Of a stretch of DNA of 64,000 nt, positions 25,591 to 41,485 are shown piece after piece (the stretch's first letter is position 1; the number at the start of each line of letters is the position of its first letter). The notes under the pieces were generated by a model. It saw nothing but the letters and a program-made list of their open reading frames with translations. It made no database searches and was not told where the DNA came from. The position numbers and the translations under genes are program-made. Origin of the DNA: Gammaproteobacteria bacterium (GTDB lineage Bacteria > Pseudomonadota > Gammaproteobacteria > JBCCGL01). Location of the stretch: the NCBI GenBank assembly GCA_965277715.1, contig OZ255836.1, positions 1,632,001 through 1,696,000 on the forward strand, written 5' to 3'.

Positions 25591-26014
25591 AACATCTATC
25601 TCCTGATTTAGCGTCCCGACACGTCGGGTTGCTGCGCGATACTCAATTGTTGGGTTGATTTTAAGTGTATGCAGCCCGGATTTTAGTACTTCATGTTTTG
25701 TCACTGATTTCTCACATTTTGTCATTGATTTATTCATCCATAAATAACATCCACGCAGGGTATGATCAGCGCAGAACATCGGCGTACCCAGGCGCTGAAG
25801 GCGCAGATGCAAAGGCTGGAAAGGCTGGAAAGGGAGAAAACGATATTAAAAAAGGCATCAACGCTGTTGATGTCGGGGGCGTACAACAGTTCGCTATGAT
25901 GGATACATTAAGCGTGAGATAGACACAGGATGGACTATTACGGGTGTTTAGCGTTGCCCGCAGTAGCTACACCTGCCGCAACCGCTAACGCGCTAAGGTA
26001 AAGCCGCAGAGAGA

Positions 26015-26075
26015 TGGTGCCCGGAGCCGGACTCGAACCGGCACGGTGTTTCCACCGAGGGATTTTAAGTCCCTT
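26015..26075 (-). pseudogene. leuZ: 3' half of the split host tRNA-Leu(TAA), at the distal att junction
   Basis: AAGGGACTTAAAATCCCTCGGTGGAAACACCGTGCCGGTTCGAGTCCGGCTCCGGGCACCA; lacks the D-arm and 5' acceptor strand. Confidence 0.9.
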
Positions 26076-26110
26076 ACCTTATTAGAGTTTACGCGGCTTG
26101 TAGTGCAGTA

Positions 26111-26143
26111 TGTGTAAGTGTCTGTGCAATAATGGCGTGCAAG
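26111..26143. promoter_or_regulatory. Putative integrase arm-type sites (left)
   Basis: TGTGTAAG, TGTGCAAT, CGTGCAAG; the same motif occurs at 40221-40249. Confidence 0.6.
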
Positions 26144-26211
26144 GCAAGAATTTCCCATATCCGTACATGGTTAATATTTGAACAAATTTAATTCGAATTA
26201 GTCCCCCGATT

Positions 26212-27123
26212 CTACACTTGCGCTAAACCAAGTACCCGGCGTACAGCATTATCCAGTTCTTCACCACTTGGAAGGTTCGCCCCGGTCACAAAACGTTGAG
26301 AGAATTCTTCAAGCTGAAACCGTAGCTCACGCTCAATTATAATGTGCCGTTGTTGACCATGTTCAACGGGTTCAGATAGTTCATAAGTGTGGACTGTCAA
26401 AACGTCCGGGGCTTTTGAATCAACAAGCGGTATATCCGCCCCAATCACATCTTCAAACTTTTTATAAACGATTTCAGGAAGAACAAAATACAGACCGCTT
26501 GAAACCATATTTGACCGTGAATAGATCAACCCCTTACGGATTAACTGCGGTATTAGTCGCTTGTGGACGTTCGCCCAGTTCATACCATGACTAGACTTTG
26601 GAATTACAGTATTGGGATCGTTTAAGTTCTTATATGCGTACCAGTTATCCCGGTAATTACCTGTAATGTCGATACTTTGAACTTCAATTCCCACGTATTC
26701 GACAAGTTCGCCATTAGAAACCTTGGCTAGTACCCAATCCATTGAAAGGTGGGTCCCTAATTTGACTTCCTTGCCAGACGTTTGACCAAGGGCAACGATA
26801 CATTCTCTAACATCGTTACGCCGTGGAATATATTCTTCGTAGGTTAAGAATTCTGTGTTGTTACCGAAAGCATCGTGGGCAACTTTCTTTAATGATGCAT
26901 ATTTATTTTCATAGAGTCGGTTCGGGCAGATAACACAATCACCATACGGGGACGTTACGCTACAAGTACCGTATGTAATGGTTTTATCGTGATTCGATTT
27001 TGTACACGCTTTTTCAACAAAGGGACAAGCGCCCAAGTTCCATAAACTTCGGCTTGTCTTGCTTAGGTCATCTGGTGCATACCCAAATATTTCAACTATA
27101 TCTTTGTTAGGTCTTTGGACCAT
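26212..27123 (-). CDS. NotI-family type II restriction endonuclease
   Basis: EIFG, Cys4 CPF..C.K..GTCSV..ICPNR, MDWVL..GIEVQSIDITGNY, NWANVHKRLIPQL. Confidence 0.88.
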   Translation of the reverse strand: MVQRPNKDIVEIFGYAPDDLSKTSRSLWNLGACPFVEKACTKSNHDKTITYGTCSVTSPYGDCVICPNRLYENKYASLKKVAHDAFGNNTEFLTYEEYIPRRNDVRECIVALGQTSGKEVKLGTHLSMDWVLAKVSNGELVEYVGIEVQSIDITGNYRDNWYAYKNLNDPNTVIPKSSHGMNWANVHKRLIPQLIRKGLIYSRSNMVSSGLYFVLPEIVYKKFEDVIGADIPLVDSKAPDVLTVHTYELSEPVEHGQQRHIIIERELRFQLEEFSQRFVTGANLPSGEELDNAVRRVLGLAQV

Positions 27124-27126
27124 TGA

Positions 27127-28293
27127 TTACATTCCTATCATTGTTCTTATTTGGTCACCGATTGCTTTAGCCATTAATGGCGGTACAGCATTTCCAACCT
27201 GCTCGTATTGTTGTGTAACGCTACCCGTGAACTTGTAGTGGTCGGGGAACGATTGTATACGTGCAGCTTCACGAATTGAAATTACTCGGTCTTGTGTAGG
27301 GTGGAAAAAACTTCCCCAGTGCGGGTCACACTTTGTTAGTACAGTTGAACACAAGGCTTCAGGGTGAAGCCGACCATAGCGTTTGGTGTGGTCACTACGG
27401 CGCGCACGTTTTAAACCGGCTGGTAATAGGTCAAAAGGTATATCACGCCAACTTCCACCTTGGGGAATATGCTTCAGGCGCTCAAGATTAACATTACCTA
27501 AATTCGCACAACTATGATTTTCAACAGTTGCAGCACCGTTACGAACAATTTTTTGAAAATCTGATTTTGCTTTAGTTGCATACTTTAAAGGACCGTTCTT
27601 ACTTCCACTTTTAATTTCGGGTAAATCTGAGATTGCATCCCATACACCTGTTTGATCTTTCAATACTGATGCAAACAACGGCGGAACACTGATACAAAGT
27701 TCTTTTGCACCAGAAAAGTTAGCAACGGCTTTAGCGTTATATTCAGGTTCGGGGAATTCAATTTTCAAACCATTTTTCCTTTTAACCCCTATAAAGATAG
27801 TTCTAAACCGCATTTGTGGAACCCCATAATGACCGGCAAATAAAATACGGTGACTTACTGAGTATCCAAGTGATTCAAGTTCTTTGTAAATCTGCTCAAC
27901 AACTGTTCCTTGACCAAGTTGAACAATACCGGGAACATTTTCAATTAAAACGGCTTTAGGCTTAAGCGTAGCTGCAACCCGTAAGAAGTCCTTAAACAAA
28001 TGATTTCTTGAATCATCCAGTGTTCGGATTGGTGCATTTACGGAAAACCCTTGGCATGGGGGTCCACCGGCAAGTAGATCAAGTTCACCAACCTTTAAAC
28101 CAAGTGATTTTTTCAGGTTACGTTCACAAACTTGGCGAACATCGCCAACGACTACTTCGGTATTGGGGTTATTTTCCATATATGTGTTTGCGTATTGCTC
28201 AACAAGTTCGTTGGCTAACACTGTTTGAAACCCTGCCATTTCTAAACCACACGACAAACCACCAGCACCCGCAAATAAGTCAACTGACTTCAT
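27127..28293 (-). CDS. DNA (cytosine-5)-methyltransferase
   Basis: DLFAGAGG, GGPPCQGFS, ENVPG, PQ.R.R, REAARIQSFPD, QVGNAVPP. Confidence 0.95.
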   Translation of the reverse strand: MKSVDLFAGAGGLSCGLEMAGFQTVLANELVEQYANTYMENNPNTEVVVGDVRQVCERNLKKSLGLKVGELDLLAGGPPCQGFSVNAPIRTLDDSRNHLFKDFLRVAATLKPKAVLIENVPGIVQLGQGTVVEQIYKELESLGYSVSHRILFAGHYGVPQMRFRTIFIGVKRKNGLKIEFPEPEYNAKAVANFSGAKELCISVPPLFASVLKDQTGVWDAISDLPEIKSGSKNGPLKYATKAKSDFQKIVRNGAATVENHSCANLGNVNLERLKHIPQGGSWRDIPFDLLPAGLKRARRSDHTKRYGRLHPEALCSTVLTKCDPHWGSFFHPTQDRVISIREAARIQSFPDHYKFTGSVTQQYEQVGNAVPPLMAKAIGDQIRTMIGM

Positions 28294-28304
28294 TAGTGTC
28301 TGCC

Positions 28305-28550
28305 CTATACAAAATCATGCCCACAACTGGACGCTTTAAAATCTAATAACACTTTGGGATTAACTTTCAGGGCTTCAGCAATACGGCATATATTCCGCAA
28401 GCTGATATTTCGTTCACCACGTTCAACGCTACTAACATAAGTCCTATCAAGCCCTGCTTGGGTTGCAAGTTGTTCTTGGTTCAAGCCGGTCTTCTTTCGT
28501 AATAGTCGTAAGTTTTCGCCAAATGGAGCAAGCGGGTCAGTATCAACCAC
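28305..28550 (-). CDS. XRE-family HTH protein, probable R-M controller (C) protein
   Basis: FGENLR.LR...LNQEQLA..AGLDRTYVSSVERGERNISL; directly upstream of M and R. Confidence 0.8.
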   Translation of the reverse strand: MVDTDPLAPFGENLRLLRKKTGLNQEQLATQAGLDRTYVSSVERGERNISLRNICRIAEALKVNPKVLLDFKASSCGHDFV

Positions 28551-28773
28551 GTGGAATCCCCGAAAAGAATGTTATGGTTCCAAAAAGTTGACTTTACGTC
28601 ACATTTGTTGATATGTACACCAAAATAAGTGCTAATGATTTTAAAACCCAAGCAAACATAGGGAGAATGCCATTTAGGGCTTGAAAAATAATCAAAAAGC
28701 CCAATATATGGGTTAAATCTGGATTTGCAGTACCAGATAGCAGTTTTCACTAACTAACAAAGGTACAGGCACC

Positions 28774-29004
28774 ATGGGTAAGAAAGTCATAGACGCCAAA
28801 GAAGACAATAAGGGCAACATCACCGCAGTAAAATTATCAGGGAACAGTTCATTCACCCCTGTTGAAACTGCCATAAAAATGGCTGATAAGGGGCAAATAG
28901 ACAATGCTCATGCGGTCCATCCCAAAAGCGGCGCTAAAGATCACCTAAGAACCAATCCAGATAACCGGAAGGGTAACAACTTGGACGAAATGGCAAAGGA
29001 CTAA
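28774..29004 (+). CDS. DUF3892-family small protein
   Basis: GNITAVKL...HLRTNPDNRKGNNLDEM. Confidence 0.75.
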   Translation: MGKKVIDAKEDNKGNITAVKLSGNSSFTPVETAIKMADKGQIDNAHAVHPKSGAKDHLRTNPDNRKGNNLDEMAKD

Positions 29005-29048
29005 TGCCCCATCAACAAAACTAACAACTTTATGCGAGAAGGATTTTT

Positions 29049-30965
29049 ATGTTCATTCTAAAAAAAGCGGTAGTCAACAAGTACAAAAGCTATACCACTG
29101 AACAGGAAGTCCAGCTTGAAAGTGATGTGACCACGCTGGTTGGTAAAAATGAAAGTGGTAAGACCGCCTTCTTAGAATCTTTGGCAAAGTTTAACTACTT
29201 CACCGACGATGAAGACTTTAAGTTTGATGAAGTTCAAGACTACCCCAGAAGTGAACTGAAAAAACACCAACGTTCTGGTGACGATCAAAAAGTCATAATC
29301 TGTACATTTCAACTAGATAAAGACACCATCGACGAAATAAATGATGATCTAGGTGAAGGGGTTTTAACTGTTGATTCTTTCACAGTTGCAACAAAGTATG
29401 AAACCGGTCGAGCATGGTATCACTTCAATTCAAATGAAAAAAAGTACCTTGAAAATCTTCAAGGGCAACTAGGATTCTGCGACGAAACCAAAGAAAAACT
29501 ACTGTCATTCAAAAACATCAAGGCTGCGGCAAGTCAAGATGCTGGAGAAGATGAAGAATTAGCTTCGGTTATCAATCATCTTAACACTGAAATTACAAGT
29601 CATGCCGGGAAGTGGGAACCAGTGATTGACGGGTATATTGTCAATGAATACTTGAATCCAAGACTTCCACGCTTTTGGTATTTTGATGAATACCATGAAT
29701 TGCCGTCACGGGTTAGCATTGATTCTATCCGAAGTAATACAACTACTGGCGAGCTAACCAAGCAGCAGTTAGATACAGCCAAAGCACTGTTTGAGCTGGC
29801 GGTTATTGATATTGACGAACTGGCGAATGCTTCAAGTTTTGAATCATTTATTGCTGAACTTGAAGCAACATCAAACGAAATCACTGATCAAATTTTCAAA
29901 TATTGGTCAACTAACGGCAATCTTGAAATCGATTTTAAGATTGACCCTATACACCGCCAAAATCAACAGCCTGAAAAAATTCTTGATATACGTGTAAAGA
30001 ATACCCGGCATAGAATCACTCTGCCATTGAAGAATCGAAGCAAGGGCTTCAATTGGTTCTTTTCGTTTATTGTATGGTTCAGCAAAATTCAGGATGAAAA
30101 AGACAAGAATTTTATTCTTTTGCTGGATGAACCCGGCTTGAATCTACATGCTTCAGCACAAGCCGATTTGCTGCGCTTCATAAACGATCTTTCCGAAGAC
30201 TATCAAATAGTTTACACAACACATTCACCCTTCATGGTTGAGTCGGATGCGCTTCACCGTGTGCGTACTGTTTATGATTCTGAAGACGGAAGCATAATTT
30301 CAGAAGCCATACAGGAAAAAGACCCGGATACATTATTCCCACTTCAAGCGGCGCTTGGTTATGACATTGCTCAAAACCTGTTTGTTTCGAAGAACAATCT
30401 ACTTGTTGAAGGACCGGCAGACCTTAACTATCTAACCTATATGTCTAACTTGCTTGAAAATGAAGGGCGTGAAGAGTTGCGGGATGATATTACAATTGTA
30501 CCTGTTGGCGGTTTGGATAAAGTGGCTTCATTTATTTCGTTACTTCGTGGGTCAAAGCTAAAAATTTCCTGCTTACTGGATAGCTTCAATAATGCCAAGG
30601 GCGCGCAACGACTGGGCGGGCTTATTCAGTCAAAAATAATCAAGGATAAGCATGTTAGATTCTTTGATGAATTTGCCGGTGACGATTACGACAAGGCAGA
30701 CATTGAAGACATGTTTGAAAAAACTGAATACCTTGAAATATTCGGTGAAGCATTCCCTGAACATAAAGGAATAACTGTTTCAGATTTGGACGATAAGAAG
30801 CCAACAATCTTACTTCAGTTGAAAGCCATTCGTAACGGCAAAGACTTCAACCATTTCAAGCCTTCCCAATTGTTATTAAGCAAGGGGCTTGGTGCTGATT
30901 ATTTTTCAAAGAAAACGCTGGATAAGTTTGAAGCCATGTTTAAGGAAGTGAATAGCTTGTACTGA
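29049..30965 (+). CDS. OLD-like ABC/AAA ATPase with C-terminal TOPRIM-like domain
   Basis: GKNESGKT, RSKG, LLLDEP, TTHSP, LLVEGPAD. Confidence 0.82.
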   Translation: MFILKKAVVNKYKSYTTEQEVQLESDVTTLVGKNESGKTAFLESLAKFNYFTDDEDFKFDEVQDYPRSELKKHQRSGDDQKVIICTFQLDKDTIDEINDDLGEGVLTVDSFTVATKYETGRAWYHFNSNEKKYLENLQGQLGFCDETKEKLLSFKNIKAAASQDAGEDEELASVINHLNTEITSHAGKWEPVIDGYIVNEYLNPRLPRFWYFDEYHELPSRVSIDSIRSNTTTGELTKQQLDTAKALFELAVIDIDELANASSFESFIAELEATSNEITDQIFKYWSTNGNLEIDFKIDPIHRQNQQPEKILDIRVKNTRHRITLPLKNRSKGFNWFFSFIVWFSKIQDEKDKNFILLLDEPGLNLHASAQADLLRFINDLSEDYQIVYTTHSPFMVESDALHRVRTVYDSEDGSIISEAIQEKDPDTLFPLQAALGYDIAQNLFVSKNNLLVEGPADLNYLTYMSNLLENEGREELRDDITIVPVGGLDKVASFISLLRGSKLKISCLLDSFNNAKGAQRLGGLIQSKIIKDKHVRFFDEFAGDDYDKADIEDMFEKTEYLEIFGEAFPEHKGITVSDLDDKKPTILLQLKAIRNGKDFNHFKPSQLLLSKGLGADYFSKKTLDKFEAMFKEVNSLY

Positions 30966-30978
30966 TAAAGTGGCGTTT

Positions 30979-31251
30979 TCACGCCACATAGCCACCAGCA
31001 CTAATTTTAGGCGGTGGAAACACTTCATTCAATTGACCCTGAATAAATGCTAGTTGATCTATATTGCCGTAAGGGTCAGTGCCAAGGCTATTAAGAACAT
31101 GCTCAACCCACGGACGAAGGATAATCCCAAATCCTTGGGCACGGTCAACATTTTCAATTTCACAGCAAGCGTCAAACAAGTCCCGCAACTGTTCACTACA
31201 TTTTGTAATCACTATGGATTTTTGACCTACAGCATTAGCCATTTTGTTCAC
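30979..31251 (-). CDS. Hypothetical protein (island)
   Basis: Last of three overlapping co-oriented small ORFs. Confidence 0.5.
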   Translation of the reverse strand: MNKMANAVGQKSIVITKCSEQLRDLFDACCEIENVDRAQGFGIILRPWVEHVLNSLGTDPYGNIDQLAFIQGQLNEVFPPPKISAGGYVA

Positions 31252-31513
31252 CCTTGCGCCATTCTGAAAATGATTTTATGGTCACATCCGCCTTACTGGG
31301 ATCGTATGCCATAGCACTTTCATGAAAGACCCGTTCATTGTCTGTTAGCGTGTCAGGCTTCATAACAGCCTGTTCAGCCAACTTAATAATTTCGTGACCG
31401 CTTGCTGATAGAATTTTTTTAATCTTATTCTTCAGTCGAGTCCGGGCGACAAACAGCTTTTCTTCAGTGCACAGTTGGTCCATTACTGATGGCTCGTTAT
31501 TCATGACTGTCAC
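31235..31513 (-). CDS. Hypothetical protein (island)
   Basis: Overlaps both neighbours, with an AAGGTG RBS-like sequence. Confidence 0.55.
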   Translation of the reverse strand: MTVMNNEPSVMDQLCTEEKLFVARTRLKNKIKKILSASGHEIIKLAEQAVMKPDTLTDNERVFHESAMAYDPSKADVTIKSFSEWRKGEQNG

Positions 31514-31709
31514 CTTCTTTCTGATCGTTAATGCCGATAATCAGCAACCGGTCAAACTGCCCAAAATCTTTGATCATAGAAGTGGTCAGGTCTGAAATAC
31601 CGTTTTCAAGGTGAACAGGTGAAAGCTGTTCAGCACCTTCAAATGTTTCGCCCAAGTAAAGGCAATATTTTTCGTGCTTTGATAGTTGTTGGTAAATTTC
31701 TTGTTTCAT
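31497..31709 (-). CDS. Hypothetical protein (island)
   Basis: GGGGA RBS before MKQEIY. Confidence 0.5.
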   Translation of the reverse strand: MKQEIYQQLSKHEKYCLYLGETFEGAEQLSPVHLENGISDLTTSMIKDFGQFDRLLIIGINDQKEGDSHE

Positions 31710-31837
31710 GTTTTCCCCCAAATGGTTTGTTGTTCTTGTTATTTATGAAGGGTCTGAAACCCGGACTGTCACGAACTCAAACTAAGAAACAGCGGGCTAT
31801 TTTTCAATTGCACCACCCCTGTTATAGCGACAACTGA

Positions 31838-32349
31838 CTAAGCTGCATTAATGTACTGGTAAGCACCTTCAACAATGCCGGGCACACGTTTAACCATCTT
31901 CGCTTCGTTACCAACCACTTGATAAAGCGTTGCTTCAAGTTCATACGGTTCAAGGTGGTGAGTTAGTCGTAAAGCCAACTTATTCAACGCCGCACGGCGC
32001 AAGCCAGAACCTACAGGGGTGCTTTGATAGTCGGCAATATAACGCTGTACCTTTTCTTCACACGCGGTCACCGTGCGATTCTGGAAGCTATGCGTGACCG
32101 CCTTGGGCTTCACCTGTTCAGGAATGTACTTGTACTCTTGGCTTTCTGGATCAATGGCACGGCTGTTGAACTGTAGCGTCTTGTTACCGAACTTTTTGAA
32201 GAAGGTATATTTCTTATGGTCCTGATACTTCGCGTTAGTACATGGGCAATAGAAGTCCTGTACAGGCGAGTATGAAGCCGGGTCAACATTCACGCCTTCT
32301 GGCAACCGTGCCACCAGCTTGGTCACAATCTGCTTATAGTGTTCGGGTG
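31838..32349 (-). pseudogene. C-terminal fragment of a gene cut by IS21, possibly a primase/replication protein (PriCT-like)
   Basis: Open frame runs up to the IS21 end; VDPAS..P and G.RRAALNKLALRL resemble AEP primase C-terminal regions. Confidence 0.5.
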
Positions 32350-32435
32350 TATTAAGTGACAATTATCTTGTCCGGTAGGTGACAATTATCCTGTCCGGTT
32401 TCATGCTGGTACTTTTATAGCTCCTTGGAGATTAA

Positions 32436-33941
32436 GTGCCCGGTTTACGAATCCATCCCCGACAAGAGAAATTGTATATGAACTATCGAAACCAAAGCCT
32501 TACACAAGAATCCGCAGCGGCTAAAGCGGGTATATCGAGTCGTAGTGGTCGTCGAATAGAGAAACAGGAACGACCTCACCAACCTCATCACTGGCGAACC
32601 CGAGCTGACCCACTGGAAGCGGTCTGGAACTCGGAGTTAGTGCCGCTGCTGGAGAAGGAGTCGGGTTTAACCCCGATCACCTTGTTTGAGTATTTGGACG
32701 ACCATTACCCCGGTGAGTATGGCCAGCGTATTATGCGTACCCTGCAAAGGCGGGTGAGTGATTGGAAAGCGCAATACGGCCCCGATAAGGCGGTTATCTT
32801 TCGCCAGATAGCACAAGCAGGCCGTCAGGGGCTGTCAGACTTTAGCCATCCTAACGCTGCCATTACCCTTGGCGGCAAACCCTTTGCACATATGTTCTAC
32901 CAATTTTGTCTGGCTTACAGTGGTTGGCGTAGCGTGACGGTTATTCAAGGCGGGGAGAGTTATGCGGCATTGAGTAGCGGTTTGCAAAATGCCCTTCATC
33001 AATTAGGCGGTAGTCCATTAGAGCACCGCACTGACAGCCTCAGTGCAGCGCGTAATAATCACACTAACCGATGGACCGATGCTTACCAGGCTTTATGTGC
33101 CCATTATGGGCTGGAACCCACGGTCAACAACCAAGGCAAAGGGCATGAAAACGGTGCGATTGAAGCCCGCCATGGTGTGTTAAAACGGCGTTTATCACAA
33201 GCCTTAAAATTACGCGGTTCCAACGATTTTGCTACCTTGGAAGCCTATACCCGGTTTGTCCAAAAAGTGGTCGATAAGCTCAACCGTCGTTTTGCCACAG
33301 GCTTGAGCGAAGAAAAAGCCGTATTGCAAGCTTTGCCCCATCACCGGTTTAGCGATTACCACTCCCTCACCGTCAAAGTCACACGCACCTCGACCATCGC
33401 CGTTAAACACGTGCTGTATAGCGTTCCTTCCCGCCTTATTGGAAAAGCCTTGCACATACACCTTTACCATGACCGTTTGGAAGGCTTTATCGGTCAGGCC
33501 AAGGTGGTGGAACAACCGCGACACTATACCAAGCCAGGCGAAACCCGTGCACGACAAATTGACTGTCGCCATGTTATTCGTGCCTTATCCGCCAAGCCTC
33601 AAGCCTTTCGTTGTCTGAATTACCGCGATCAGCTATTCCCCACGTCTACCTACCAGACGCTGTGGTCTATTGCGGATACGTATTTTGACTCTCGGGAAGC
33701 CTGCAAGTGGATGGTTCGGGTACTGTACATTCACTGTTTCTATGATAATCAACTCGATACCAAACTCTGGCAACAATGGCAGCAAACGCAAAAACTGCCC
33801 CCACGTCAGCAACTCGACAAAAAGGCGCTCCATACCACCGATCACCCACAACAACCTGGGGTACAGCAACATGATCTGAGCCAATACAATCAACTCCTCG
33901 CCGCCACCAAAACGGAGGCACACCATGTCCACAACACTTGA
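32436..33941 (+). CDS. istA: IS21 transposase
   Basis: RTRADPL, RTLQRRV, HRTDSLSAA, HENGAIE. Confidence 0.92.
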   Translation: MPGLRIHPRQEKLYMNYRNQSLTQESAAAKAGISSRSGRRIEKQERPHQPHHWRTRADPLEAVWNSELVPLLEKESGLTPITLFEYLDDHYPGEYGQRIMRTLQRRVSDWKAQYGPDKAVIFRQIAQAGRQGLSDFSHPNAAITLGGKPFAHMFYQFCLAYSGWRSVTVIQGGESYAALSSGLQNALHQLGGSPLEHRTDSLSAARNNHTNRWTDAYQALCAHYGLEPTVNNQGKGHENGAIEARHGVLKRRLSQALKLRGSNDFATLEAYTRFVQKVVDKLNRRFATGLSEEKAVLQALPHHRFSDYHSLTVKVTRTSTIAVKHVLYSVPSRLIGKALHIHLYHDRLEGFIGQAKVVEQPRHYTKPGETRARQIDCRHVIRALSAKPQAFRCLNYRDQLFPTSTYQTLWSIADTYFDSREACKWMVRVLYIHCFYDNQLDTKLWQQWQQTQKLPPRQQLDKKALHTTDHPQQPGVQQHDLSQYNQLLAATKTEAHHVHNT

Positions 33942-34695
33942 ACTACTGTTACGTGAACTCAAACTACCCCGCTTTGTTCAGTACTACCCTGATACGCTAC
34001 AACAAGCTCAGGAACACCAATGGAGCTATCTACAGTTCCTCGAAACCTTGTGTGAGAAAGAACGGGCCGATCGTTATACCCGCCGTGTGCAGAACTGGAA
34101 TCGGGAAGCAAAATTGCCTCTCGGTAAAACCCTCTCCTCATGGTGTAGTGATCCGTTGTCTGTGACCGTACAGGATAGGCTACAAGCTCTTTGGCAGGAT
34201 ACCTCCTGGGTGGAACAGGCTCATAACCTGCTGCTGTTTGGTCCCAGTGGTATAGGCAAAACCCATATCGCCTGTGCTATCGGCTACGCTATGATTGAAC
34301 AAGGGGTTCGAGCCCGCTACTTCAAAGCCATGGAACTGGTACAACAGCTTCAACAGGCTAAAAAACAGCTCGAACTGATGAACGCCATGACCCGTCTGGA
34401 CAAGTACCGCATGATCATTGTTGATGATATCGGTTACGTCAAAAAGTCCGAAGCGGAAACTTCCGTTCTCTTTGAATTTATTGCGCACCGATACGAAAGC
34501 GCCAGCCTCATCATTACTGCTAACCAGCCTCTTAGCGAATGGGATAGTATTTTTCCCGACAGTATGATGACCGTGGCTGCCGTTGACAGGCTTATTCACC
34601 ATGCCGCCATTGTCGAAATGAACGGCGACAGCTATCGGAAAAAACAACAAATTAATAGCTTGAAAACACAGGGGAAAACAACCTCCCTTTTGTGA
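33925..34695 (+). CDS. istB: IS21 helper ATPase
   Basis: GPSGIGKTH, IVDDIGY, RYE..SLIITANQ, DRLIHH. Confidence 0.94.
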   Translation: MSTTLELLLRELKLPRFVQYYPDTLQQAQEHQWSYLQFLETLCEKERADRYTRRVQNWNREAKLPLGKTLSSWCSDPLSVTVQDRLQALWQDTSWVEQAHNLLLFGPSGIGKTHIACAIGYAMIEQGVRARYFKAMELVQQLQQAKKQLELMNAMTRLDKYRMIIVDDIGYVKKSEAETSVLFEFIAHRYESASLIITANQPLSEWDSIFPDSMMTVAAVDRLIHHAAIVEMNGDSYRKKQQINSLKTQGKTTSLL

Positions 34696-34751
34696 CAACT
34701 AACCGGACAACTTAATTGACGCCTATCGGACAAAATAATTGACACTTAACA

Positions 34752-35369
34752 GTTTGCAAACAGTTGAAGCGTAAATTCATTGGTATTGAAATCGACAATG
34801 AATATTTTGCACTTGCTAAGGAACGTATCAATCAAAACACTGAAATCAGCAACCAAAGAAAAAACCACGTGGGTCACGAGCTTGGCTATCAACGCGGCTC
34901 AAAGCTGGCTGGTGACTTTGACACTATATTCACTGACAAGCCGGGGCGTGATGATGAACTACGACACTTGAAGGACGTGGTGGGAAATGGGTCACACGTA
35001 ACAGTGAATTCCTACATTGAATTTGGTGACAGCATGGAATCACTGTTTAAGAACGTGCGGCACGTTATCGCCAAGGGCGGCAGCATAGAATTTTTAGCTG
35101 AAGGTCATCGGTTCGACAATGAAGAACAGCTTGCCCTATTCGAATCATTGACACAGTTCAGCAAGCAGGCTGCACGGACCAAACTTGAACGCGGTCTTGA
35201 ACGTAGTAAGAAAAACAATGGTCGCCCCAGTCAGTTCACAAAGTCACAAATGAAGACCATGGTCAGACAGGCGCGCAAGATCAAAACCAAGGAAGACCGT
35301 GAAGCATTCTGTGAAAAGCATGGTATTAGCCGCCCATACAGCTACAAGCTGGCGAAAATGACCGGTTAA
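34752..35369 (+). CDS. DNA methyltransferase C-terminal remnant in frame with a degenerate serine-resolvase-like/HTH domain
   Basis: KRKFIGIEIDNEYF..AKERI (amino-MTase C-terminus), then GYQRGS, FTDK, GRP and GISRPYSYK. Confidence 0.6.
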   Translation, partial: VCKQLKRKFIGIEIDNEYFALAKERINQNTEISNQRKNHVGHELGYQRGSKLAGDFDTIFTDKPGRDDELRHLKDVVGNGSHVTVNSYIEFGDSMESLFKNVRHVIAKGGSIEFLAEGHRFDNEEQLALFESLTQFSKQAARTKLERGLERSKKNNGRPSQFTKSQMKTMVRQARKIKTKEDREAFCEKHGISRPYSYKLAKMTG

Positions 35370-35427
35370 ACACACCTTCAACAACACGTATAAGCCATAT
35401 ATGCCAAAAACCGTGAAAATCCGTATG

Positions 35428-35706
35428 TGAAGAATTTTGATTCTGAAAAACGGTTGAAAAACCCTGTTTTTAAATCGGGTGAAGAATAACGACCACCAGC
35501 CCCATGAAATAGCCTGTTTCACCACGGTCACACCATGTAATTAACCGTTAGACCCTGATTACCTGAAGAATGACACCGCGAAATATAGCTACATCGTCAG
35601 GACCAGCGTTTTCACCATCCCCCAGCATCAAAAAACCCGGTTTATCTGAAGAATTATAAAAATCACCGGGTCACCTTGCGTCACCATTTCCCAAAATTTG
35701 AAGAAT
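35428..35706 (+). repeat. Five TGAAGAAT octamers in an intergenic region
   Basis: Copies at 35428, 35480, 35564, 35647 and 35699. Confidence 0.7.
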
Positions 35707-35818
35707 CTTGGTATCACAACCATTTTGCTAGTTACGTGATGCTATTTGTGCCTGTTTGTAACCGACGAAAACGCCTTTGTATAAATATAAAGACAACAAA
35801 CAAAGGAGTTTCCCGAAA

Positions 35819-36043
35819 ATGAACAATTATCTTGATGCCGCCGGTATTACACATTATGAACGCGCAATCTTAACAGCCCTTGCAACTGCCACAACGGGCG
35901 CTGAATTAGTAACCGCATTACAGACTTTTGACGTGACCCTTCAGGCGGATCGACTGCGCCAGTCATTAACGAATGTGCAAAAAAGCTGCGCGCTCAATAC
36001 TGCACGTGCAACTATCGTTAATGACGCATTGGCGGCACTGTAA
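35819..36043 (+). CDS. Hypothetical protein (island)
   Basis: AAGGAG RBS before MNNYLD; first gene of a tightly coupled operon. Confidence 0.6.
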   Translation: MNNYLDAAGITHYERAILTALATATTGAELVTALQTFDVTLQADRLRQSLTNVQKSCALNTARATIVNDALAAL

Positions 36044-36252
36044 TGGATGACCTACAAGTCTACCGGGATGCGTTAGCCAAGAATGGCGGCAATGCTAAGG
36101 AATCGGCGGCAAAGTACATCGCAGAAAGTGAATGGGATGATGTGGACATTCCAAAGTTCTGCATGGCGCTGAAAAACCGTCTTTTGTATGAACGTCTTTC
36201 CGAACATGAAAAACGATTGACCCGTGAAGTAATCCGTCAACTAGGGGGCTAA
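36043..36252 (+). CDS. Hypothetical protein (island)
   Basis: TAATG coupling to the upstream ORF. Confidence 0.6.
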   Translation: MDDLQVYRDALAKNGGNAKESAAKYIAESEWDDVDIPKFCMALKNRLLYERLSEHEKRLTREVIRQLGG

Positions 36253-36256
36253 TTCT

Positions 36257-36661
36257 ATGATTAGTGAGTTAACAGCACTTGATAAAGGGGACCCAGCAGT
36301 AAAGGAAAAGGTGATTGCTGAAATCAACCGCCTATATCGACGCCGGGATTTCCTACTTGTTCGCTATACATGGCAGGAAATGAAAGACGTGGCTTCCTAT
36401 CTACGGGACAACCACGGGTTCCTTCAGGGGGCAACGCCTGAATACGTTGACGCTATTTTGAAGCCATACAACGAAATTGAGTACGCGCACATTTTCGCCA
36501 TCGTTAAGGCATTGGGTACAGGTGAAGACCTAAAGCCCTTGCGTGATGCTGTACGGGCAGACTCGCAACGTATGCGCCGCATGGTGAAGAAACTGACCCG
36601 TGAAGACAAAAATACCGGCGGATTCATGAAGAAAATTAAGAATAAAATAGGAGTGAAATAA
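36257..36661 (+). CDS. Hypothetical protein (island)
   Basis: 134-aa ORF in the same operon. Confidence 0.65.
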   Translation: MISELTALDKGDPAVKEKVIAEINRLYRRRDFLLVRYTWQEMKDVASYLRDNHGFLQGATPEYVDAILKPYNEIEYAHIFAIVKALGTGEDLKPLRDAVRADSQRMRRMVKKLTREDKNTGGFMKKIKNKIGVK

Positions 36662-36662
36662 A

Positions 36663-38646
36663 ATGTTGAAATGTTGGTCTGAACTTAAAGCAGGCAGTGA
36701 AAAGCTATTCAATGCATCAGTGTTTCAAAATTCCTGGCTGTCGAGGTTTTAAATGCCTCACTAAGCTATGCATAATAGTTCTAAGGGACTTTCTTGTCAT
36801 TATTGCATTTTGCAGAGAGCGGATGGTGAATGAGCATATACGGGTAATTCTAGCGTAAAAAAAACAATGGATTAACAAAGCCGCCTTTTTTCTGGGCAAT
36901 TTGTTGTCTCTTATCAAGCATTTTAGTGTATTTTTTATCAGATGGATGAATACATTCCAGGTTCTTTGTTTTTGATATTTCTTCAAAAATACGCATGATA
37001 TTATAGGCCATGGCAGTAAAACGCATTTGACTGTTCAGCGCATTCAGGTTTGAAGACCAGGCTTTTCTTTCGGTGAAATCACTTTTGCTATTGTTGAATG
37101 ATTTTTCTATCGTCCAACGCTTGTAATAGAGCATAGCAATAGTGCCTGGGTTAATTGACTCTGGTAGCGTTGAAATAAATTGATGTAATTGACCTGTTTC
37201 TGGGTCGCGGTATTTAACAATATGAAATTGGACCTTTTTATTTTTATATACACTATAGCCTTCAACCCCTGTATTAATTTCACTACCCTGGTCATAGGGT
37301 ATAGAGTTGACAAAAGTTGCAACTGCATTTTCTTTGAGTACTGAAATCATAAAATTCTGATGCTGTTTTTGCTTTTCCCACCATGCATAATCAGTCACTG
37401 CCTTATCGTATATATAGAGATGCTTTTGCCAAGTCTCTTTTTCGCCACAACGTTGTTCAATATAAGAACGTAACGCGGGTATTTCCTGGTGCCGTTCAGT
37501 ACCGTTAGTCACGACACAAAGTGGTCTTAGAAGTCCATTTCTGAGGTTCAAGGCATGAATAAAGCCTGCTGCGAAGACGTTGCCCTGACGATTTTTCTCT
37601 GTGTGACAAGCATGCTGTATAAAATGACCATCAGCTGCTTCTACTCGATATTCTTCAAGTTCAGGAAATTGTTTTAAATAATCAATGTCCAAAGAAGATA
37701 ATTTCTCACTTTGCAGTTGATAGCTTTGCTTTTCCATGGCTTGCATCATCTTCATCCGTCTTGTCGACTTCAATGCGTTAAAATAGCTTGAATGACAAAT
37801 TGTCTCGTCGTATATTTCATCCGTAACCTGTAGATAGTGACGACCACTATGTACAAGACTTATACAGCGAAGTAACCCATGGCGAGAAAAAGCTACGTCA
37901 TCAATGGCATCGCATGATCTTTTCCATAAAGGGAAGCGTTCAGCAGCAATTGCTTTTTCCATACTTATTTTACAGTGTTCGGTGATATATTCTTCAACGG
38001 TCATCATTTCGTTCATATTAAATTTGCCCATTTAATCAGATATTAAATGGGTATTTTAAAAAAAATTCTGCTGGTGAATGCAAGTGTTTTTTTGGATAAT
38101 TTTATTTATTTTATGAATTATAAAGCGTGTTATCGGTTTATAAAAAAACAGTACAAATATTATAAAAAATACTATTTGTAGCTTATGGTGGCTCTTGTCA
38201 GGTGTTATTCATTGCGTTATTAGCTTCCTGGTAGGATTCTAGTGGTACACCCATGATTCAATGAATGTTTAGCCGCCGCAAATAAAGAACCGGGGTCTGA
38301 AGGCTAGCTTGTTCTACGGACTTGGAACGAACTGGCTAACACGTCTAAGTCCATTCGAAACAATATGTTTCAGATTGATAGCCAGAAAATCGCGGCACAG
38401 CTAACAAGTATGGAATGGTCATATGTTGAAGGCATGGTAAACACTACACGCACTAGCCATATTGAAGCACGTAAGGCACAGCATAAGACTATGGCGCAAC
38501 GTAGTGAACGATTTTTGAAATGGTTCTTGGACAATAATGCCGCGCTGGTTGAACTGGCAGAAATGGAAACAAAGATCAAAGGTCGTCGTATGCCTAGTGA
38601 ATCATCAACTGAATGGGCGAACCTTAGCCAACAACTGTTCAACTAA
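36663..38646 (+). pseudogene. Hypothetical gene interrupted by IS4 and a TAG stop
   Basis: Removing the IS gives MLKCWSELKAGSEKLFNECLAAANKEPGSEG*LVLRTWNEL...MFQIDSQK, in frame with 38365-38646. Confidence 0.75.
36715..38255 (-). mobile_element. IS4-family insertion sequence with 8-bp target duplication; transposase 36850-38031 frameshifted near the C-terminus
   Basis: ATTCAATG at 36707-36714 and 38256-38263; CAT...ATG ends; ADGH, YDKA and YYKRWTIEKSF (YREK) motifs; frame break at the A8 run 36857-36864. Confidence 0.85.
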
Positions 38647-38725
38647 GAATTCACGTACACTGAATTCAAGTTAATAAATTTTTGGTTGTTATATCCAGTG
38701 TGCGCGAATGGCGGGGTGGCGATTG

Positions 38726-40201
38726 TCACCCCGTTTTTTTATCTTCCTTTTCTTCTTGAACAGCGTAGAAGTAATTCAGTGCGTCCTTATCGCGGTCACT
38801 GAAATTTTCAGTAAGAGTGCTGGCTTCGTCATCCATTTCTAATTCTTCAAGTTCGTGCAATAACTTAGCAAGTTGCTTGCCGCGTTGAAGTTGTTCGCCA
38901 GAATCATATTCATATGGAACAGGCTTCAACTTTGGCTTTGGTGGTTCGTCGGGATCGCCCCCTGATTCTGCTTGTTCCTTTTTTCGTAAACGGTCATTAA
39001 ACTTTTGATATTCTTCAAAGTCCAAAGGCGTTATGTGATTGGTATAATGATCTTCAATCATCTTTGGACTGTTACCACAGTTTTTAGCAATTTCGTTTAC
39101 GTTAACACCTTCAAGGAAGCGGTTTGAAATGAAGGAATGACGAAGTGATTCAAAGGTTCGATATTCACCTTTCTTTTCACCACGAATATCCTGTTCTTCC
39201 AGTATTTGAACGAAGCGCGAACGGTTATTTTGATCAAATAGTTTTTCATTAGAATTGCGGTCAAGCCCCCGGCGGGTCAAGATGCGCTTGTAAACAGTGC
39301 CAGAACCTTTAACCCCGACTGTCACCCGTGATTTAGTTTTTGCGCCATCTTCATCGGGAACATTGATTACAGTGACTTGATATACTTTTCCATTCTCACG
39401 AACACCTTTTAGCCGTACATCCTTACAGCGAATAATTCCGAGTTCTTCAGGGCGCAACCCGGTGTATAACATCAAATGTACTCGGTCACGCAATGATTCA
39501 GCACTGTACAGGTCTGTTTTTCGCGTCTTCCCCTGAATATTATCGTCAAGGGCTGTTAATAGCTTATGCTGTTCACGAATGCTAAACCATATACGCTTGG
39601 CATTGTTGTTATTGAATTTCAGACCATCTTTCAAAGTTGGTAGGCGATAATCTTCAACCAGTTCGTCTGCCACATTCAGACAGGTTCGAAGTGAACCCTT
39701 GATTAGTCGAACATAATTTTTGCTTATATCAGGCTTACGCTTATACAGGTCAGCAAGATAGTCCTTCCACATTTTGCTATTAACATCGGTGACCGGTGTG
39801 GTCCCAAAAAATGGCTGAATTTCTAACAGGTAGTTCTTTTCGATAGTGTTCCAATGGCTTTTGGTGTTGTGACCCATGCCAATACGAACACGATAGCTTT
39901 CCGTAGCGCGGTGGAAGCAATCATCAACCGTGACTTGACCGGAAAGGCTAACCCTTTCACCTTTACCAATAGTTTGTAGAAATTCTTCATAAGCTATTGC
40001 TGCAATTTTACAGGCTTCCTTGAAATCCTTCTTTCCAGTGGATTTACGATTGTCTGTGCCTTTGCCAGCACTACTAAGTTCAGTCTTGATAAACCAACGA
40101 TATTGCCAAACGTTGCCACGTTTGTGCATCGTGATTTCGTCGTAAAGGGGATGGTCTGCCATGGGGCTGGAATCCTTACACACATGTTGAAAATCGGTCA
40201 T
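38726..40201 (-). CDS. int: Tyrosine recombinase / integrase
   Basis: YTGLRPEEL, KTK, SLRHSF, GNSPKMIEDHY; N-terminal arm-binding-like region (WQYR..RKSTG); start may be 40162. Confidence 0.9.
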   Translation of the reverse strand: MTDFQHVCKDSSPMADHPLYDEITMHKRGNVWQYRWFIKTELSSAGKGTDNRKSTGKKDFKEACKIAAIAYEEFLQTIGKGERVSLSGQVTVDDCFHRATESYRVRIGMGHNTKSHWNTIEKNYLLEIQPFFGTTPVTDVNSKMWKDYLADLYKRKPDISKNYVRLIKGSLRTCLNVADELVEDYRLPTLKDGLKFNNNNAKRIWFSIREQHKLLTALDDNIQGKTRKTDLYSAESLRDRVHLMLYTGLRPEELGIIRCKDVRLKGVRENGKVYQVTVINVPDEDGAKTKSRVTVGVKGSGTVYKRILTRRGLDRNSNEKLFDQNNRSRFVQILEEQDIRGEKKGEYRTFESLRHSFISNRFLEGVNVNEIAKNCGNSPKMIEDHYTNHITPLDFEEYQKFNDRLRKKEQAESGGDPDEPPKPKLKPVPYEYDSGEQLQRGKQLAKLLHELEELEMDDEASTLTENFSDRDKDALNYFYAVQEEKEDKKTG

Positions 40202-40220
40202 CGTTAAAGATAACACAAAG

Positions 40221-40249
40221 TGTGCAAGAATGTGTAAGTGGTGTGTAAG
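40221..40249. promoter_or_regulatory. Putative integrase arm-type sites (right)
   Basis: TGTGCAAG, TGTGTAAG, TGTGTAAG at 10-11 bp spacing. Confidence 0.6.
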
Positions 40250-40377
40250 GCTTTCTGCTCGCTTCCGGGGATCAAATTTGACCGATTTTCAGCCCCGAAA
40301 AGGTGTCTTTTTTGACCCTGTTTTAGGTCGTTTTCAATAAATCAAAAAGTCATGTAACTTAATGATTTTACTAAAGT

Positions 40378-40464
40378 TGGTGCTCGGGGCGGGAATCGAA
40401 CCCGCACGATATTTCTATCGCAAGATTTTAAGTCTTGTGTGTCTACCAATTTCACCACCCGAGC
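40378..40464 (-). tRNA. tRNA-Leu(TAA), intact and island-encoded
   Basis: GCTCGGG/CCCGAGC acceptor, CAAGA-CTTAAAA-TCTTG anticodon arm, long variable arm, GGTTCGATTCC, encoded CCA. Confidence 0.95.
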
Positions 40465-40475
40465 ATAATAAGGAC

Positions 40476-40517
40476 GGATTTTAAGTCCCTTGCGTCTACC
40501 AATTTCGCCATCCGGGC
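40476..40517 (-). pseudogene. leuZ: 5' half of the split host tRNA-Leu(TAA)
   Basis: GCCCGGATGGCGAAATTGGTAGACGCAAGGGACTTAAAATCC, then non-tRNA sequence; its acceptor strand pairs with TCCGGGC of the 26015-26075 half. Confidence 0.9.
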
Positions 40518-40532
40518 AGCGATGATTATCAA

Positions 40533-40606
40533 TGGAGGCTGAGACCGGAATCGAACCGGTGTACACGGCTTTGCAGGCCGCTGCATAACCACTCTGCCAC
40601 CCAGCC
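40533..40606 (-). tRNA. cysT: tRNA-Cys(GCA)
   Basis: 74-nt cloverleaf, CTGCAAA loop, CCA end. Confidence 0.95.
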
Positions 40607-40700
40607 ATTAACAAATCAGAGTAACACTAATTAACCGCGACAATCCAAACCTTATCGAGGCGGTAAAACAACAAGGCATATAGGGTGTATATGTCGCCAT

Positions 40701-40732
40701 AAAAAAACCCCGGTTAAGTGCCGGGGTTTTTT
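40701..40732 (-). terminator. Intrinsic terminator-like hairpin between tRNA-Gly and tRNA-Cys
   Basis: AAAAAAACCCCGG-ttaagtg-CCGGGGTTTTTT. Confidence 0.7.
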
Positions 40733-40736
40733 AATC

Positions 40737-40812
40737 TGGAGCGGGAAACGAGATTCGAACTCGCGACCCCAACCTTGGCAAGGTTGTGCTCTACCAGCTG
40801 AGCTATTCCCGC
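40737..40812 (-). tRNA. glyW: tRNA-Gly(GCC)
   Basis: GCGGGAATAGCTCAG...TTGCCAA...TTCCCGCTCCA, 76 nt. Confidence 0.96.
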
Positions 40813-40891
40813 AGAGGGCGGCATTCTAGCCAATGCTGCCATTATGTCAATACTGTTGGCCGGTATTTCTCTAAATCTCTCTCAATCCCCC

Positions 40892-41458: not shown

Positions 41459-41485
41459 GTTAATCGTCAGTTTGTACCGGGTTAT

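What the first reader, a model, noticed from the sequence alone, without database searches (positions are those of the whole stretch)
26015..40517. Island destroys the host tRNA-Leu(TAA) and replaces it with its own complete, recoded tRNA-Leu(TAA)
Seen: the host leuZ-position gene is in two pieces, a 5' half at 40476-40517 and a 3' half at 26015-26075. They share only a 16-bp anticodon-arm core (GGATTTTAAGTCCCTT). Joined, they give a normal tRNA (acceptor GCCCGGA/TCCGGGC). Neither junction rebuilds the gene. An intact 87-nt tRNA-Leu(TAA) with different acceptor, anticodon-stem, variable-arm and T-arm sequences (40378-40464) sits 11 bp inside the island, co-oriented with tRNA-Cys. Established: tRNA-targeting integrases normally restore the gene by carrying its 3' part in attP, and tRNA-Leu(UAA) is the usual sole reader of UUA codons. 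From memory, complementation by a phage tRNA has been described for some actinobacteriophages; I do not know of this architecture in a gammaproteobacterial island. Inference: a 'break and replace' integration in which the host depends on the element's tRNA until precise excision.
Basis: partly seen in the sequence, partly recalled or inferred. Interest (0 to 1): 0.9.

Follow-up and report, generated by a model that had tools for sequence, protein, structure and literature searches.

The report
Defence island swaps host leucine tRNA
A 14.4-kb mobile defence island in a sponge-associated bacterium cuts the host's UUA-reading leucine tRNA gene in two and brings a complete, differently spelled copy of that tRNA right at the cut, a trick so far described mainly for phages of actinobacteria.

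Summary
A low-GC 14,400-bp island (26076-40475) lies in the anticodon arm of the host tRNA-Leu(UAA), downstream of uvrC-pgsA-tRNA-Gly-tRNA-Cys. Its ends share only a 16-bp core, so neither junction rebuilds the gene. A complete 87-nt tRNA-Leu(UAA) sits 11 nt inside the island. Contigs from two sponge metagenomes of other studies join 26059 directly to 40476 with the core present once. This is an island-free allele whose native gene equals the joined halves, not the island tRNA. The island tRNA differs from the host tRNA at 19 of 87 positions: nine compensated stem pairs and one T-loop base. All other loop bases and A73 are identical, so it looks functional. The cargo is a type II restriction-modification system, an OLD-like nuclease and two IS elements, with no phage genes. 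The integrase family is rare. The mechanism matches 'tRNA-dependent lysogeny' (Guerrero-Bustamante and Hatfull 2024), so the principle is known. New here are the host class, the non-phage element, and the tRNA embedded in attP in line with the host operon. Host dependence is untested, because no genome is held and a second host-like Leu tRNA contig occurs in the same samples.

The parts
26015..26075 (-). Displaced 3' half of the host tRNA-Leu(UAA): variable arm, T arm, 3' acceptor strand and CCA. It includes one copy of the 16-bp core (26060-26075).
   Evidence: the X4 and X5 contigs run from 26059 straight into 40476.
26076..26150 (.). Left end of the island (one attP arm). It holds CCTTATTA at 26077-26084, half of an 8-bp inverted repeat around the core, and TGTGTAAG at 26111-26118, a putative arm-type integrase site.
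26212..28550 (-). Type II restriction-modification cassette: NotI-like endonuclease (26212-27123), C5 cytosine methyltransferase (27127-28293) and controller HTH protein (28305-28550).
   Evidence: PF12183, PF00145. (REase_II 2.7e-136, MTase_II 1e-135, Control_protein 7.5e-26).
29049..30965 (+). OLD-family ATPase-TOPRIM nuclease, resembling Old, GajA and AriA.
   Evidence: AAA_15, OLD-like_TOPRIM. (Old 1.1e-25).
32436..34695 (+). IS21-type element (istA-like 32436-33941, istB 33925-34695) inserted in the cargo.
   Evidence: Mu-transpos_C_2, rve; IstB_IS21 3.7e-68.
36715..38257 (-). IS4-like insertion sequence with a DDE transposase at 36850-38031. It is present in many copies in the same organism.
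   Evidence: DDE_Tnp_1. (depth 3000-4600 against about 239 for the island in X1; loose ends at 36715 and 38257-38258).
38726..40162 (-). Tyrosine integrase of 478 aa, from a rare family.
   Evidence: PF00589, 29.9 bits. (11 proteins, including the window's own 478-aa form). (R237, K275, R341, H342 and Y373 invariant in 11 of 11).
40175..40250 (.). Integrase-proximal attP arm. It has three direct CTT(A/G)CACA repeats and one inverted copy. The same arrangement is conserved in the relative L119.
40378..40464 (-). Island-borne complete tRNA-Leu(UAA), 87 nt, with A73 and an encoded CCA. All stems are respelled with compensated changes.
40465..40475 (.). 11-nt spacer between the core and the island tRNA. 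It holds TAATAAGG (40466-40473), the other half of the inverted repeat.
40476..40517 (-). Displaced 5' half of the host tRNA-Leu(UAA): acceptor, D arm and anticodon arm. It includes the second copy of the 16-bp core (40476-40491).
   Evidence: this exact 42-mer occurs in at least 118 genome stretches of other species.
40533..40850 (-). Host tRNA-Cys (40533-40606) and tRNA-Gly (40737-40812), with a promoter-like site at 40823-40850. This is the transcription context into which the island tRNA is placed.

Best explanation
This is an integrative, non-phage defence island of 14,400 bp (a 14,416-bp circle when excised). Its tyrosine integrase recombines a short attP core, a 16-bp copy of the host tRNA-Leu(UAA) anticodon arm, with the host gene. 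Because attP carries only the core and not the 3' half of the gene, integration splits the host tRNA and neither junction regenerates it. In place of the 3' half, attP carries a complete tRNA-Leu(UAA) of the element's own. This tRNA lies 11 nt from the core, between the core and the integrase-proximal arm sites, and is co-oriented with the host tRNA-Gly/Cys/Leu cluster. After integration the island tRNA therefore takes the place of the broken gene behind tRNA-Cys and decodes UUA. Every stem of the island tRNA is respelled with compensated pairs, while the D and anticodon loops and the discriminator are kept. LeuRS and the ribosome should accept it. It no longer carries the 16-bp core, and it shares at most 13 contiguous bases with the host halves. 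Shown here: the insertion, the 16-bp core, the unrestored junctions, the intact island tRNA, the empty-site allele, and the conserved arm repeats. Inferred: catalysis by this integrase, expression and charging of the island tRNA, read-through from the host promoter, and any dependence of the host on the island tRNA.
For: The core is exactly 16 bp with 0 extension. No tRNA is called at either junction. X4 record 17 (2959 nt) and X5 record 24 (2686 nt), from sponge metagenomes of two other studies, join 26059 to 40476. They skip 14,416 nt, with 16 letters fitting either side, and they have no cover of the non-IS island parts. X1 contigs bridge both junctions: 26033-34643 and 38229-40505. The island tRNA scores 61.9 bits in Rfam. 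It is 68/87 identical to the host tRNA, and the 19 differences are 9 compensated stem pairs plus 1 T-loop base. Its cloverleaf survives in a fold of the 140-nt half-plus-full precursor. The integrase matches PF00589 and its catalytic R/K/R/H/Y columns are invariant in 11 of 11 family members. TGTG[TC]AAG occurs 9 times in 64 kb, 5 of them within the 503 bp at the island ends. The same repeat arrangement lies between a tRNA-Leu(UAA) 3' part and the integrase gene in L119, whose integrase is 40% identical. An 8-bp inverted repeat flanks the core in the reconstructed attP. Host genes need UUA decoding: 134 TTA in 12,006 codons, and 18 of 19 host ORFs of at least 250 aa contain one. Five of 5 other gammaproteobacterial genomes had exactly one match to a Leu(TAA) D-arm/anticodon-arm pattern. 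The same logic is proven experimentally in actinobacteriophages (PMC10865867; abstract and sections 5, 6, 10, 11 read).
Against: No whole genome is held, so other Leu(UAA) genes cannot be counted. In X1 and X3 a contig carries a host-like Leu tRNA with a different variable loop. Its depth is 361 and 178, against 192 and 100 for the host flank. A further contig leaves the host 5' half into a different upstream flank. If these lie in the same genome, the island tRNA is not the sole UUA reader. No RNA data exist. The recombination itself was not observed, and no excised-circle joint was seen. No recombination directionality factor was recognised. Two IS elements sit in the island, so it may be decaying. 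A GC hairpin with a T run between tRNA-Gly and tRNA-Cys leaves the promoter that serves Cys and the Leu position unidentified. I could not show the same half-plus-full architecture in any relative. L119 is cut off in the anticodon stem, there were 0 hits in viral contigs, and 0 of 400 sampled gammaproteobacterial genomes matched.
Confidence: 0.72

Rival explanations
1. Redundant target with a passenger tRNA. The host has another functional tRNA-Leu(UAA), so splitting this copy costs nothing. The island tRNA is then ordinary cargo that boosts UUA decoding for the AT-rich island genes. The short core simply reflects relaxed selection on attP.
For: A host-like Leu tRNA contig with a different variable loop, and a contig with a different upstream flank, occur in X1 and X3. 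Their depth tracks the host flank at 1.9x and 1.8x. TTA is used more in island genes (19.2 per 1000 codons) than in host genes (11.2 per 1000).
Against: X1 and X3 hold millions of contigs and many other Leu tRNA variants, so they are community samples and the extra contigs may belong to other organisms. Read against the window, the extra gene would carry an uncompensated change on the 3' side of its anticodon stem (my reading). Five of 5 other gammaproteobacterial genomes had a single match to the Leu(TAA) pattern. The tRNA sits 11 nt from the core, in the orientation and position of the broken gene, which is not expected of random cargo.
Confidence: 0.22
2. Decayed canonical island. The element originally restored the tRNA from a 3' half in attP, and the present state arose after integration by deletion or rearrangement. 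On this view the junctions are scars, not functional att sites.
For: Two IS elements and a truncated methyltransferase/resolvase-like ORF show that the island has been rearranged internally.
Against: The two core copies are identical over exactly 16 bp. Removing the 14,416 nt reproduces, base for base, the allele seen in X4 and X5. The island tRNA is intact and scores like the host tRNAs. The core is flanked by an 8-bp inverted repeat split between the two island ends, which makes sense only in a circular attP.
Confidence: 0.04
3. Assembly artefact. The island, or one junction, was misjoined at a conserved tRNA sequence.
For: The 5' half is an exact 42-mer shared by at least 118 other species. 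This kind of repeat breaks or misjoins metagenome assemblies, and Logan contigs do break within the tRNA halves.
Against: X1 contigs of 8611 nt and 2277 nt cross the left and right junctions, and an X3 contig crosses the left one. The 16-bp duplication and the matching empty site are what integration predicts. These runs may be the window's own source, so they are an independent assembler, not independent data.
Confidence: 0.02

Closest known systems
tRNA-dependent lysogeny of actinobacteriophages: Fionnbharth (K4), LeBron (L), BrutonGaster/OneUp, Mollymur, and Gaia at tRNA-Leu-CAA. Guerrero-Bustamante and Hatfull, mBio 2024, PMC10865867.
   Same: A tyrosine integrase acts on an attB inside a tRNA gene. 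The common core is only 8-17 bp, so no junction rebuilds the tRNA. [quoted passage not shown] Arm-type sites flank the attP core.
   Different: The host is a gammaproteobacterium, not an actinobacterium. The element is a 14.4-kb restriction/OLD defence island without phage genes, so 'lysogeny' does not apply. The tRNA lies inside attP, 11 nt from the core and in line with the interrupted tRNA cluster. In Fionnbharth it lies elsewhere, overlapping gene 37 on the opposite strand with its own promoter, and in Gaia it lies downstream of int (sections 6 and 10). The requirement for the tRNA is proven there and untested here.
Prophages resembling Mesorhizobium phage vB_MloP_Lo5R7ANS in Sinorhizobium meliloti tRNA-Leu(UAG) (PMC11476347, passages read), and prophage Lj965 of Lactobacillus johnsonii (known to me only as cited in PMC10865867, section 11).
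   Same: Integration in the central part of a tRNA gene inactivates it, and the element brings a similar isoacceptor tRNA that is only about 80% identical to the host gene.
   Different: Those elements are prophages of Alphaproteobacteria or Firmicutes. The passages I read give no detail on where the tRNA lies relative to attP.
Canonical tRNA/tmRNA-targeting genomic islands (Islander-type; abstract of PMC4383910 seen in the listing).
   Same: The integrase gene lies next to a tRNA at one island end. A displaced tRNA fragment marks the other end. The crossover falls in the anticodon arm; that this is one of the classical sublocations is my recollection of Williams 2002, not checked here.
   Different: In canonical islands, sequences inside the island regenerate the target and the direct repeat spans the 3' part of the gene. 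Here the repeat is 16 bp, the target is not regenerated, and both a 5' and a 3' fragment are left.

Membership tests
tRNA-dependent lysogeny (PMC10865867) | A tyrosine integrase recombines attP with an attB that overlaps a host tRNA gene. | tested here: met
   PF00589 hit and invariant catalytic columns. The insertion point lies in the tRNA-Leu anticodon arm, with the empty site seen in X4 and X5. Catalysis by this integrase is inferred.
tRNA-dependent lysogeny (PMC10865867) | [quoted passage not shown] | tested here: met
   16-bp core with 0 extension. No tRNA is called at either junction by ARAGORN or Rfam.
tRNA-dependent lysogeny (PMC10865867) | [quoted passage not shown] | tested here: met
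   tRNA-Leu(taa) at 40378-40464, 61.9 bits, with compensated stems and identical D and anticodon loops and A73.
tRNA-dependent lysogeny (PMC10865867) | The disrupted host tRNA is essential (sole copy) and the element's tRNA is required for survival of integrants. | not testable with these tools
   No genome is held. In favour: TTA occurs in 18 of 19 host ORFs, and 5 of 5 other genomes had one match to the pattern. Against: a possible second host-like gene in X1 and X3.
tRNA-dependent lysogeny (PMC10865867) | The element is a temperate phage. | tested here: not met
   The 14.4 kb hold a restriction-modification system, an OLD-like nuclease, IS21, an IS4-like element and the integrase. No phage structural or lysis family was hit. 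There is no integrase relative in 50,697 phage records.
Canonical tDNA-integrating genomic island | Island sequences regenerate the split target gene, and the flanking direct repeat is the 3' (or 5') part of the tRNA. | tested here: not met
Cargo tRNA for codon supplementation | The tRNA reads a codon enriched in the element relative to the host, and the tRNA is independent of the att site. | tested here: inconclusive
   TTA is at 19.2 per 1000 codons in the island and 11.2 per 1000 in the host. However, the tRNA is 11 nt from the core and replaces the same anticodon.

The most novel reading that the evidence does not exclude
A non-phage defence island uses an essential, almost universally conserved tRNA locus as both landing pad and addiction device. 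Its attP mimics only the 16-bp anticodon arm; the adjoining 5' half, core included, is identical in at least 118 species. It delivers a portable, stem-recoded tRNA-Leu(UAA) into the exact transcriptional slot of the gene it destroys. On this reading only precise integrase-mediated excision is survivable, and any deletion of the island end is lethal. The respelled stems keep the replacement from being re-targeted, from recombining with the host halves, and from mispairing with the upstream half in the precursor.
Probability: 0.4. Interest if true: 0.7.

Novelty: new variant of a known kind. Interest (0 to 1): 0.55.

Why it matters
If the island tRNA is the cell's only UUA reader, this extends tRNA-dependent integration in two ways. 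It moves it from actinobacteriophages to Gammaproteobacteria, and from phages to small defence islands. It would also show a compact version in which the replacement tRNA is part of attP itself. That would give a toxin-free way to stabilise an island. It would explain how an element can use a very short, very conserved core without being tied to one host's tRNA sequence. It would also warn that island-finding software which expects a regenerated tRNA and a long direct repeat will miss or mis-delimit such elements. Practically, an int-attP-tRNA cassette of about 2 kb could serve as an integration tool for the many bacteria that share this core.

Tried and rejected
Whole-genome tRNA count: impossible, because no genome is held.

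Relatives of the integrase:
- The single-protein scan of genome contigs found none.
- The profile scan of metagenome contigs gave 24 loci. Only L119 is a true relative; the other 23 match 24-45% over short stretches.
- The profile scan of viral contigs found none.
- In 380 genomes of the order of G002 there was one weak, interrupted match, about 30% identical, with no tRNA within 8 kb either side.
- Phage records gave none. Plasmid records gave only 24-26% identity.
- L067 was checked because its contig length resembled that of P0003. It has no match.

Origin of the island tRNA:
- Two typed stretches gave 0 hits in viral contigs.
- The best of 399 scored gammaproteobacterial genomes is 87% identical. 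The 12 top loci are ordinary native genes with no integrase.
- DNA searches of phage and plasmid records with int plus tRNA matched tRNA genes only. E. coli genomes matched only tRNA-Gly.

Host identification: no UvrC match at E<=1e-220 in 301 genomes of the order of G003. The best database relatives are 84, 82, 78 and 70% identical, all from uncultured sources. The host remains an unnamed gammaproteobacterial lineage.

Expression: no RNA holder is listed for the stretch, so nothing can be said either way.

Excised circle: no joint of the circle form was listed. Contigs cannot show rare forms, so this is not evidence.

Island cover in X4 and X5 outside the IS pieces was zero. I use only the bridging contigs as evidence.

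The promoter and terminator scans gave nothing decisive for the Cys/Leu unit or for the island's left end.

L119 begins in the anticodon stem, so it cannot show whether its tRNA is a hybrid or an island-borne full copy.

Literature: searches found tRNA-dependent lysogeny and the S. meliloti reports. They found no description in Gammaproteobacteria or in non-phage islands. This holds for the held library and these terms only. Supplements were not opened.

Full report
WHAT IS THERE

On the minus strand the window carries uvrC (41486-43318), pgsA (40892-41458; PF01066), tRNA-Gly(gcc), tRNA-Cys(gca) and then a Leu position. The Leu position is occupied by 42 nt of a tRNA-Leu(UAA) at 40517-40476. 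This piece runs from the acceptor 5' strand through the D arm to most of the anticodon arm. Then come 11 nt (40475-40465), then a complete 87-nt tRNA-Leu(taa) at 40464-40378. About 215 nt further on lies a tyrosine integrase gene on the same strand.

The missing 3' part of the first tRNA lies 14.4 kb away at 26075-26015. The two pieces overlap by the 16-mer GGATTTTAAGTCCCTT, at 26060-26075 and 40476-40491. There is no further identity on either side. Joined by coordinates in a script, they give a standard 87-nt tRNA-Leu(taa).

IT IS A DISCRETE, RECENT INSERTION

GC falls from 0.50-0.57 in the flanks to 0.38-0.50 between 26 and 40 kb. Eight public runs from four studies hold all or part of 38700-41500. 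I laid four of them on 25700-40800.

In two sponge metagenomes of two other studies (X4, X5), single contigs of 2959 and 2686 nt run from 25700 to 26059 and continue at 40476. They skip 14,416 nt, with 16 letters fitting either side. This is the empty site with the core present once. It shows that the native gene of island-free relatives is the joined halves, not the island tRNA. These runs cover nothing else of the island except IS pieces.

In runs X1 and X3, contigs cross the left junction (26033-34643 in X1; 26018-27695 in X3). In X1 a contig also crosses the right junction (38229-40505, 30 nt beyond it). These runs may be the window's own source, so they test the assembler rather than the data. 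In X3 the island contigs have depth 25-48 against 100 for the flank. In X1 the figures are 235-250 against 192-225. This suggests the island is polymorphic, but contig depths are a weak measure.

THE ISLAND tRNA LOOKS FUNCTIONAL AND IS SYSTEMATICALLY RESPELLED

Rfam scores it at 61.9 bits, like the host Cys (62.2) and Gly (69.6). Position by position it is 68/87 identical to the host tRNA. The 19 differences break down as follows:
- 2 compensated pairs in the acceptor stem
- 1 in the D stem
- 3 in the anticodon stem
- 2 in the variable-arm stem
- 1 in the T stem
- 1 single base in the T loop

The D loop, the anticodon loop, positions 8-9 and 26, A73 and CCA are identical. As a result the island tRNA lacks the 16-bp core and shares at most 13 contiguous bases with the host halves. 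In a fold of the 140-nt 'half plus full' precursor the island cloverleaf is kept. The junction itself forms a small hairpin. The best match among 399 scored gammaproteobacterial genomes is 87% identical, and host-type genes are 78% identical. The top hits are ordinary chromosomal genes. The donor is unknown.

ATT-SITE ANATOMY

TGTG[TC]AAG occurs 9 times in the window, 5 of them within the 503 bp at the island ends. On the integrase side there are three direct copies and one inverted copy between the tRNA and int.

The only reachable relative is the metagenome contig L119, whose integrase is 40% identical. It has the same repeat arrangement and other conserved blocks, again directly downstream of a tRNA-Leu(UAA) 3' part. 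That contig starts in the anticodon stem, so its architecture upstream is unknown.

In the circular form the core would be flanked by an 8-bp perfect inverted repeat: TAATAAGG at 40466-40473 and CCTTATTA at 26077-26084. This fits core-type binding sites and makes sense only if the two island ends are joined.

The 42-nt host 5' half, including the core, occurs exactly in at least 118 stretches from many Gammaproteobacteria, Betaproteobacteria and Campylobacterota. In 117 of the 118 it lies in an intact tRNA-Leu, and the remaining one is cut by a contig end.

THE ELEMENT IS NOT A PHAGE

The cargo is as follows:
- a type II restriction-modification system with a controller protein
- an OLD-family ATPase-TOPRIM nuclease
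- an IS21 element
- a truncated methyltransferase/resolvase-like ORF
- an IS4-like element
- a few small ORFs with no family hit

The integrase family is small: 11 proteins in the 5.8-billion-protein search. R237, K275, R341, H342 and Y373 are invariant across them. There are no relatives in phage records.

MECHANISM AND PRECEDENT

The anatomy matches 'tRNA-dependent lysogeny' (PMC10865867; abstract and sections 5, 6, 10 and 11 read). That system has a tyrosine integrase, an attB in a tRNA gene, an 8-17-bp core, no reconstruction of the tRNA, and a phage tRNA of the same isotype that complements the loss. There it was shown by integration plasmids with and without the tRNA.

The paper notes Lj965 of Lactobacillus johnsonii as a possible case outside the actinobacteriophages. 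Passages of PMC11476347 and PMC12429752 describe two S. meliloti prophages that split tRNA-Leu(UAG) and carry a substitute. My searches found no gammaproteobacterial or non-phage case in the held library.

Three features are different here:
- the host is a gammaproteobacterium of an unnamed lineage (UvrC at most 84% identical to anything else)
- the element is a defence island rather than a phage
- the tRNA sits inside attP, 11 nt from the core and in line with the host tRNA cluster, whereas the Fionnbharth tRNA lies elsewhere with its own promoter

WHAT REMAINS OPEN

Dependence is the weak point. Host genes use TTA at 11.2 per 1000 codons, and 18 of 19 host ORFs of at least 250 aa contain one. 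UUA needs a tRNA-Leu(UAA); this rests on established decoding rules and was not tested here. Five of 5 other gammaproteobacterial genomes had a single match to a Leu(TAA) pattern.

Against this, no genome is held for this window. In X1 and X3 a short contig carries a host-like Leu tRNA with six other letters in the variable-arm region, at depth 361 and 178. That is about 1.8-1.9 times the host flank in both runs. Another contig leaves the host 5' half into a different upstream flank that looks like the 3' end of another tRNA. These runs hold millions of contigs and several other Leu tRNA variants. The extra gene may therefore belong to another member of the community, or it may be a second copy in the same genome. 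I could not decide between these. Expression, charging, the serving promoter and excision are all inferred.

VERDICT

The break-and-replace architecture is real and is supported by an independent empty-site allele. The principle is already published for phages, so this is a new variant of a known kind, of moderate interest. It would rise if the island tRNA proves to be the sole UUA reader.

Noticed in passing
window 36715-38257: The IS4-like element has contig depth 3000-4600 in X1 against about 239 for the neighbouring island DNA, roughly 13-19 fold. It is also highly covered in the island-free sponge metagenomes X4 and X5. This points to an IS expansion in this organism or community.
   Followed up: partly
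window 32436-35369: An IS21 element (istA/istB) sits next to a 201-aa ORF. The first residues of that ORF match the C-terminal end of N6/N4 methyltransferases, and the rest weakly matches resolvase. It is probably a cargo gene disrupted by the IS.
   Followed up: no
window 17203-25812 (-): A 2869-aa ORF directly beside the tRNA 3' half has 7 FG-GAP and 6 LamG-type stretches. It is a giant adhesin-like protein. X4 and X5 differ from the window by a 9-nt deletion at 25811, at its start.
   Followed up: no
window 40703-40735: A GC-rich hairpin with T runs on both sides lies between tRNA-Gly and tRNA-Cys. It is visible but was not listed by the terminator scan. tRNA-Gly may therefore be a separate transcription unit from Cys and the Leu position.
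   Followed up: partly
runs X1 and X3, laid at window 26051/40473 and 40519: Contigs show a second, host-like Leu tRNA with a different variable loop, and a contig with a different upstream flank resembling the 3' end of another tRNA. Their depth is about 1.8-1.9 times the host flank in both runs. Whether they belong to the same genome or to another community member is unknown.
   Followed up: partly
window 41486-43318 and the whole flank: The host is an unnamed gammaproteobacterial lineage. The best other UvrC proteins are 84, 82, 78 and 70% identical, all from uncultured sources. Named genera such as Halofilum and Thiogranum are about 60% identical. The flanks occur at high depth in sponge metagenomes.
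   Followed up: partly
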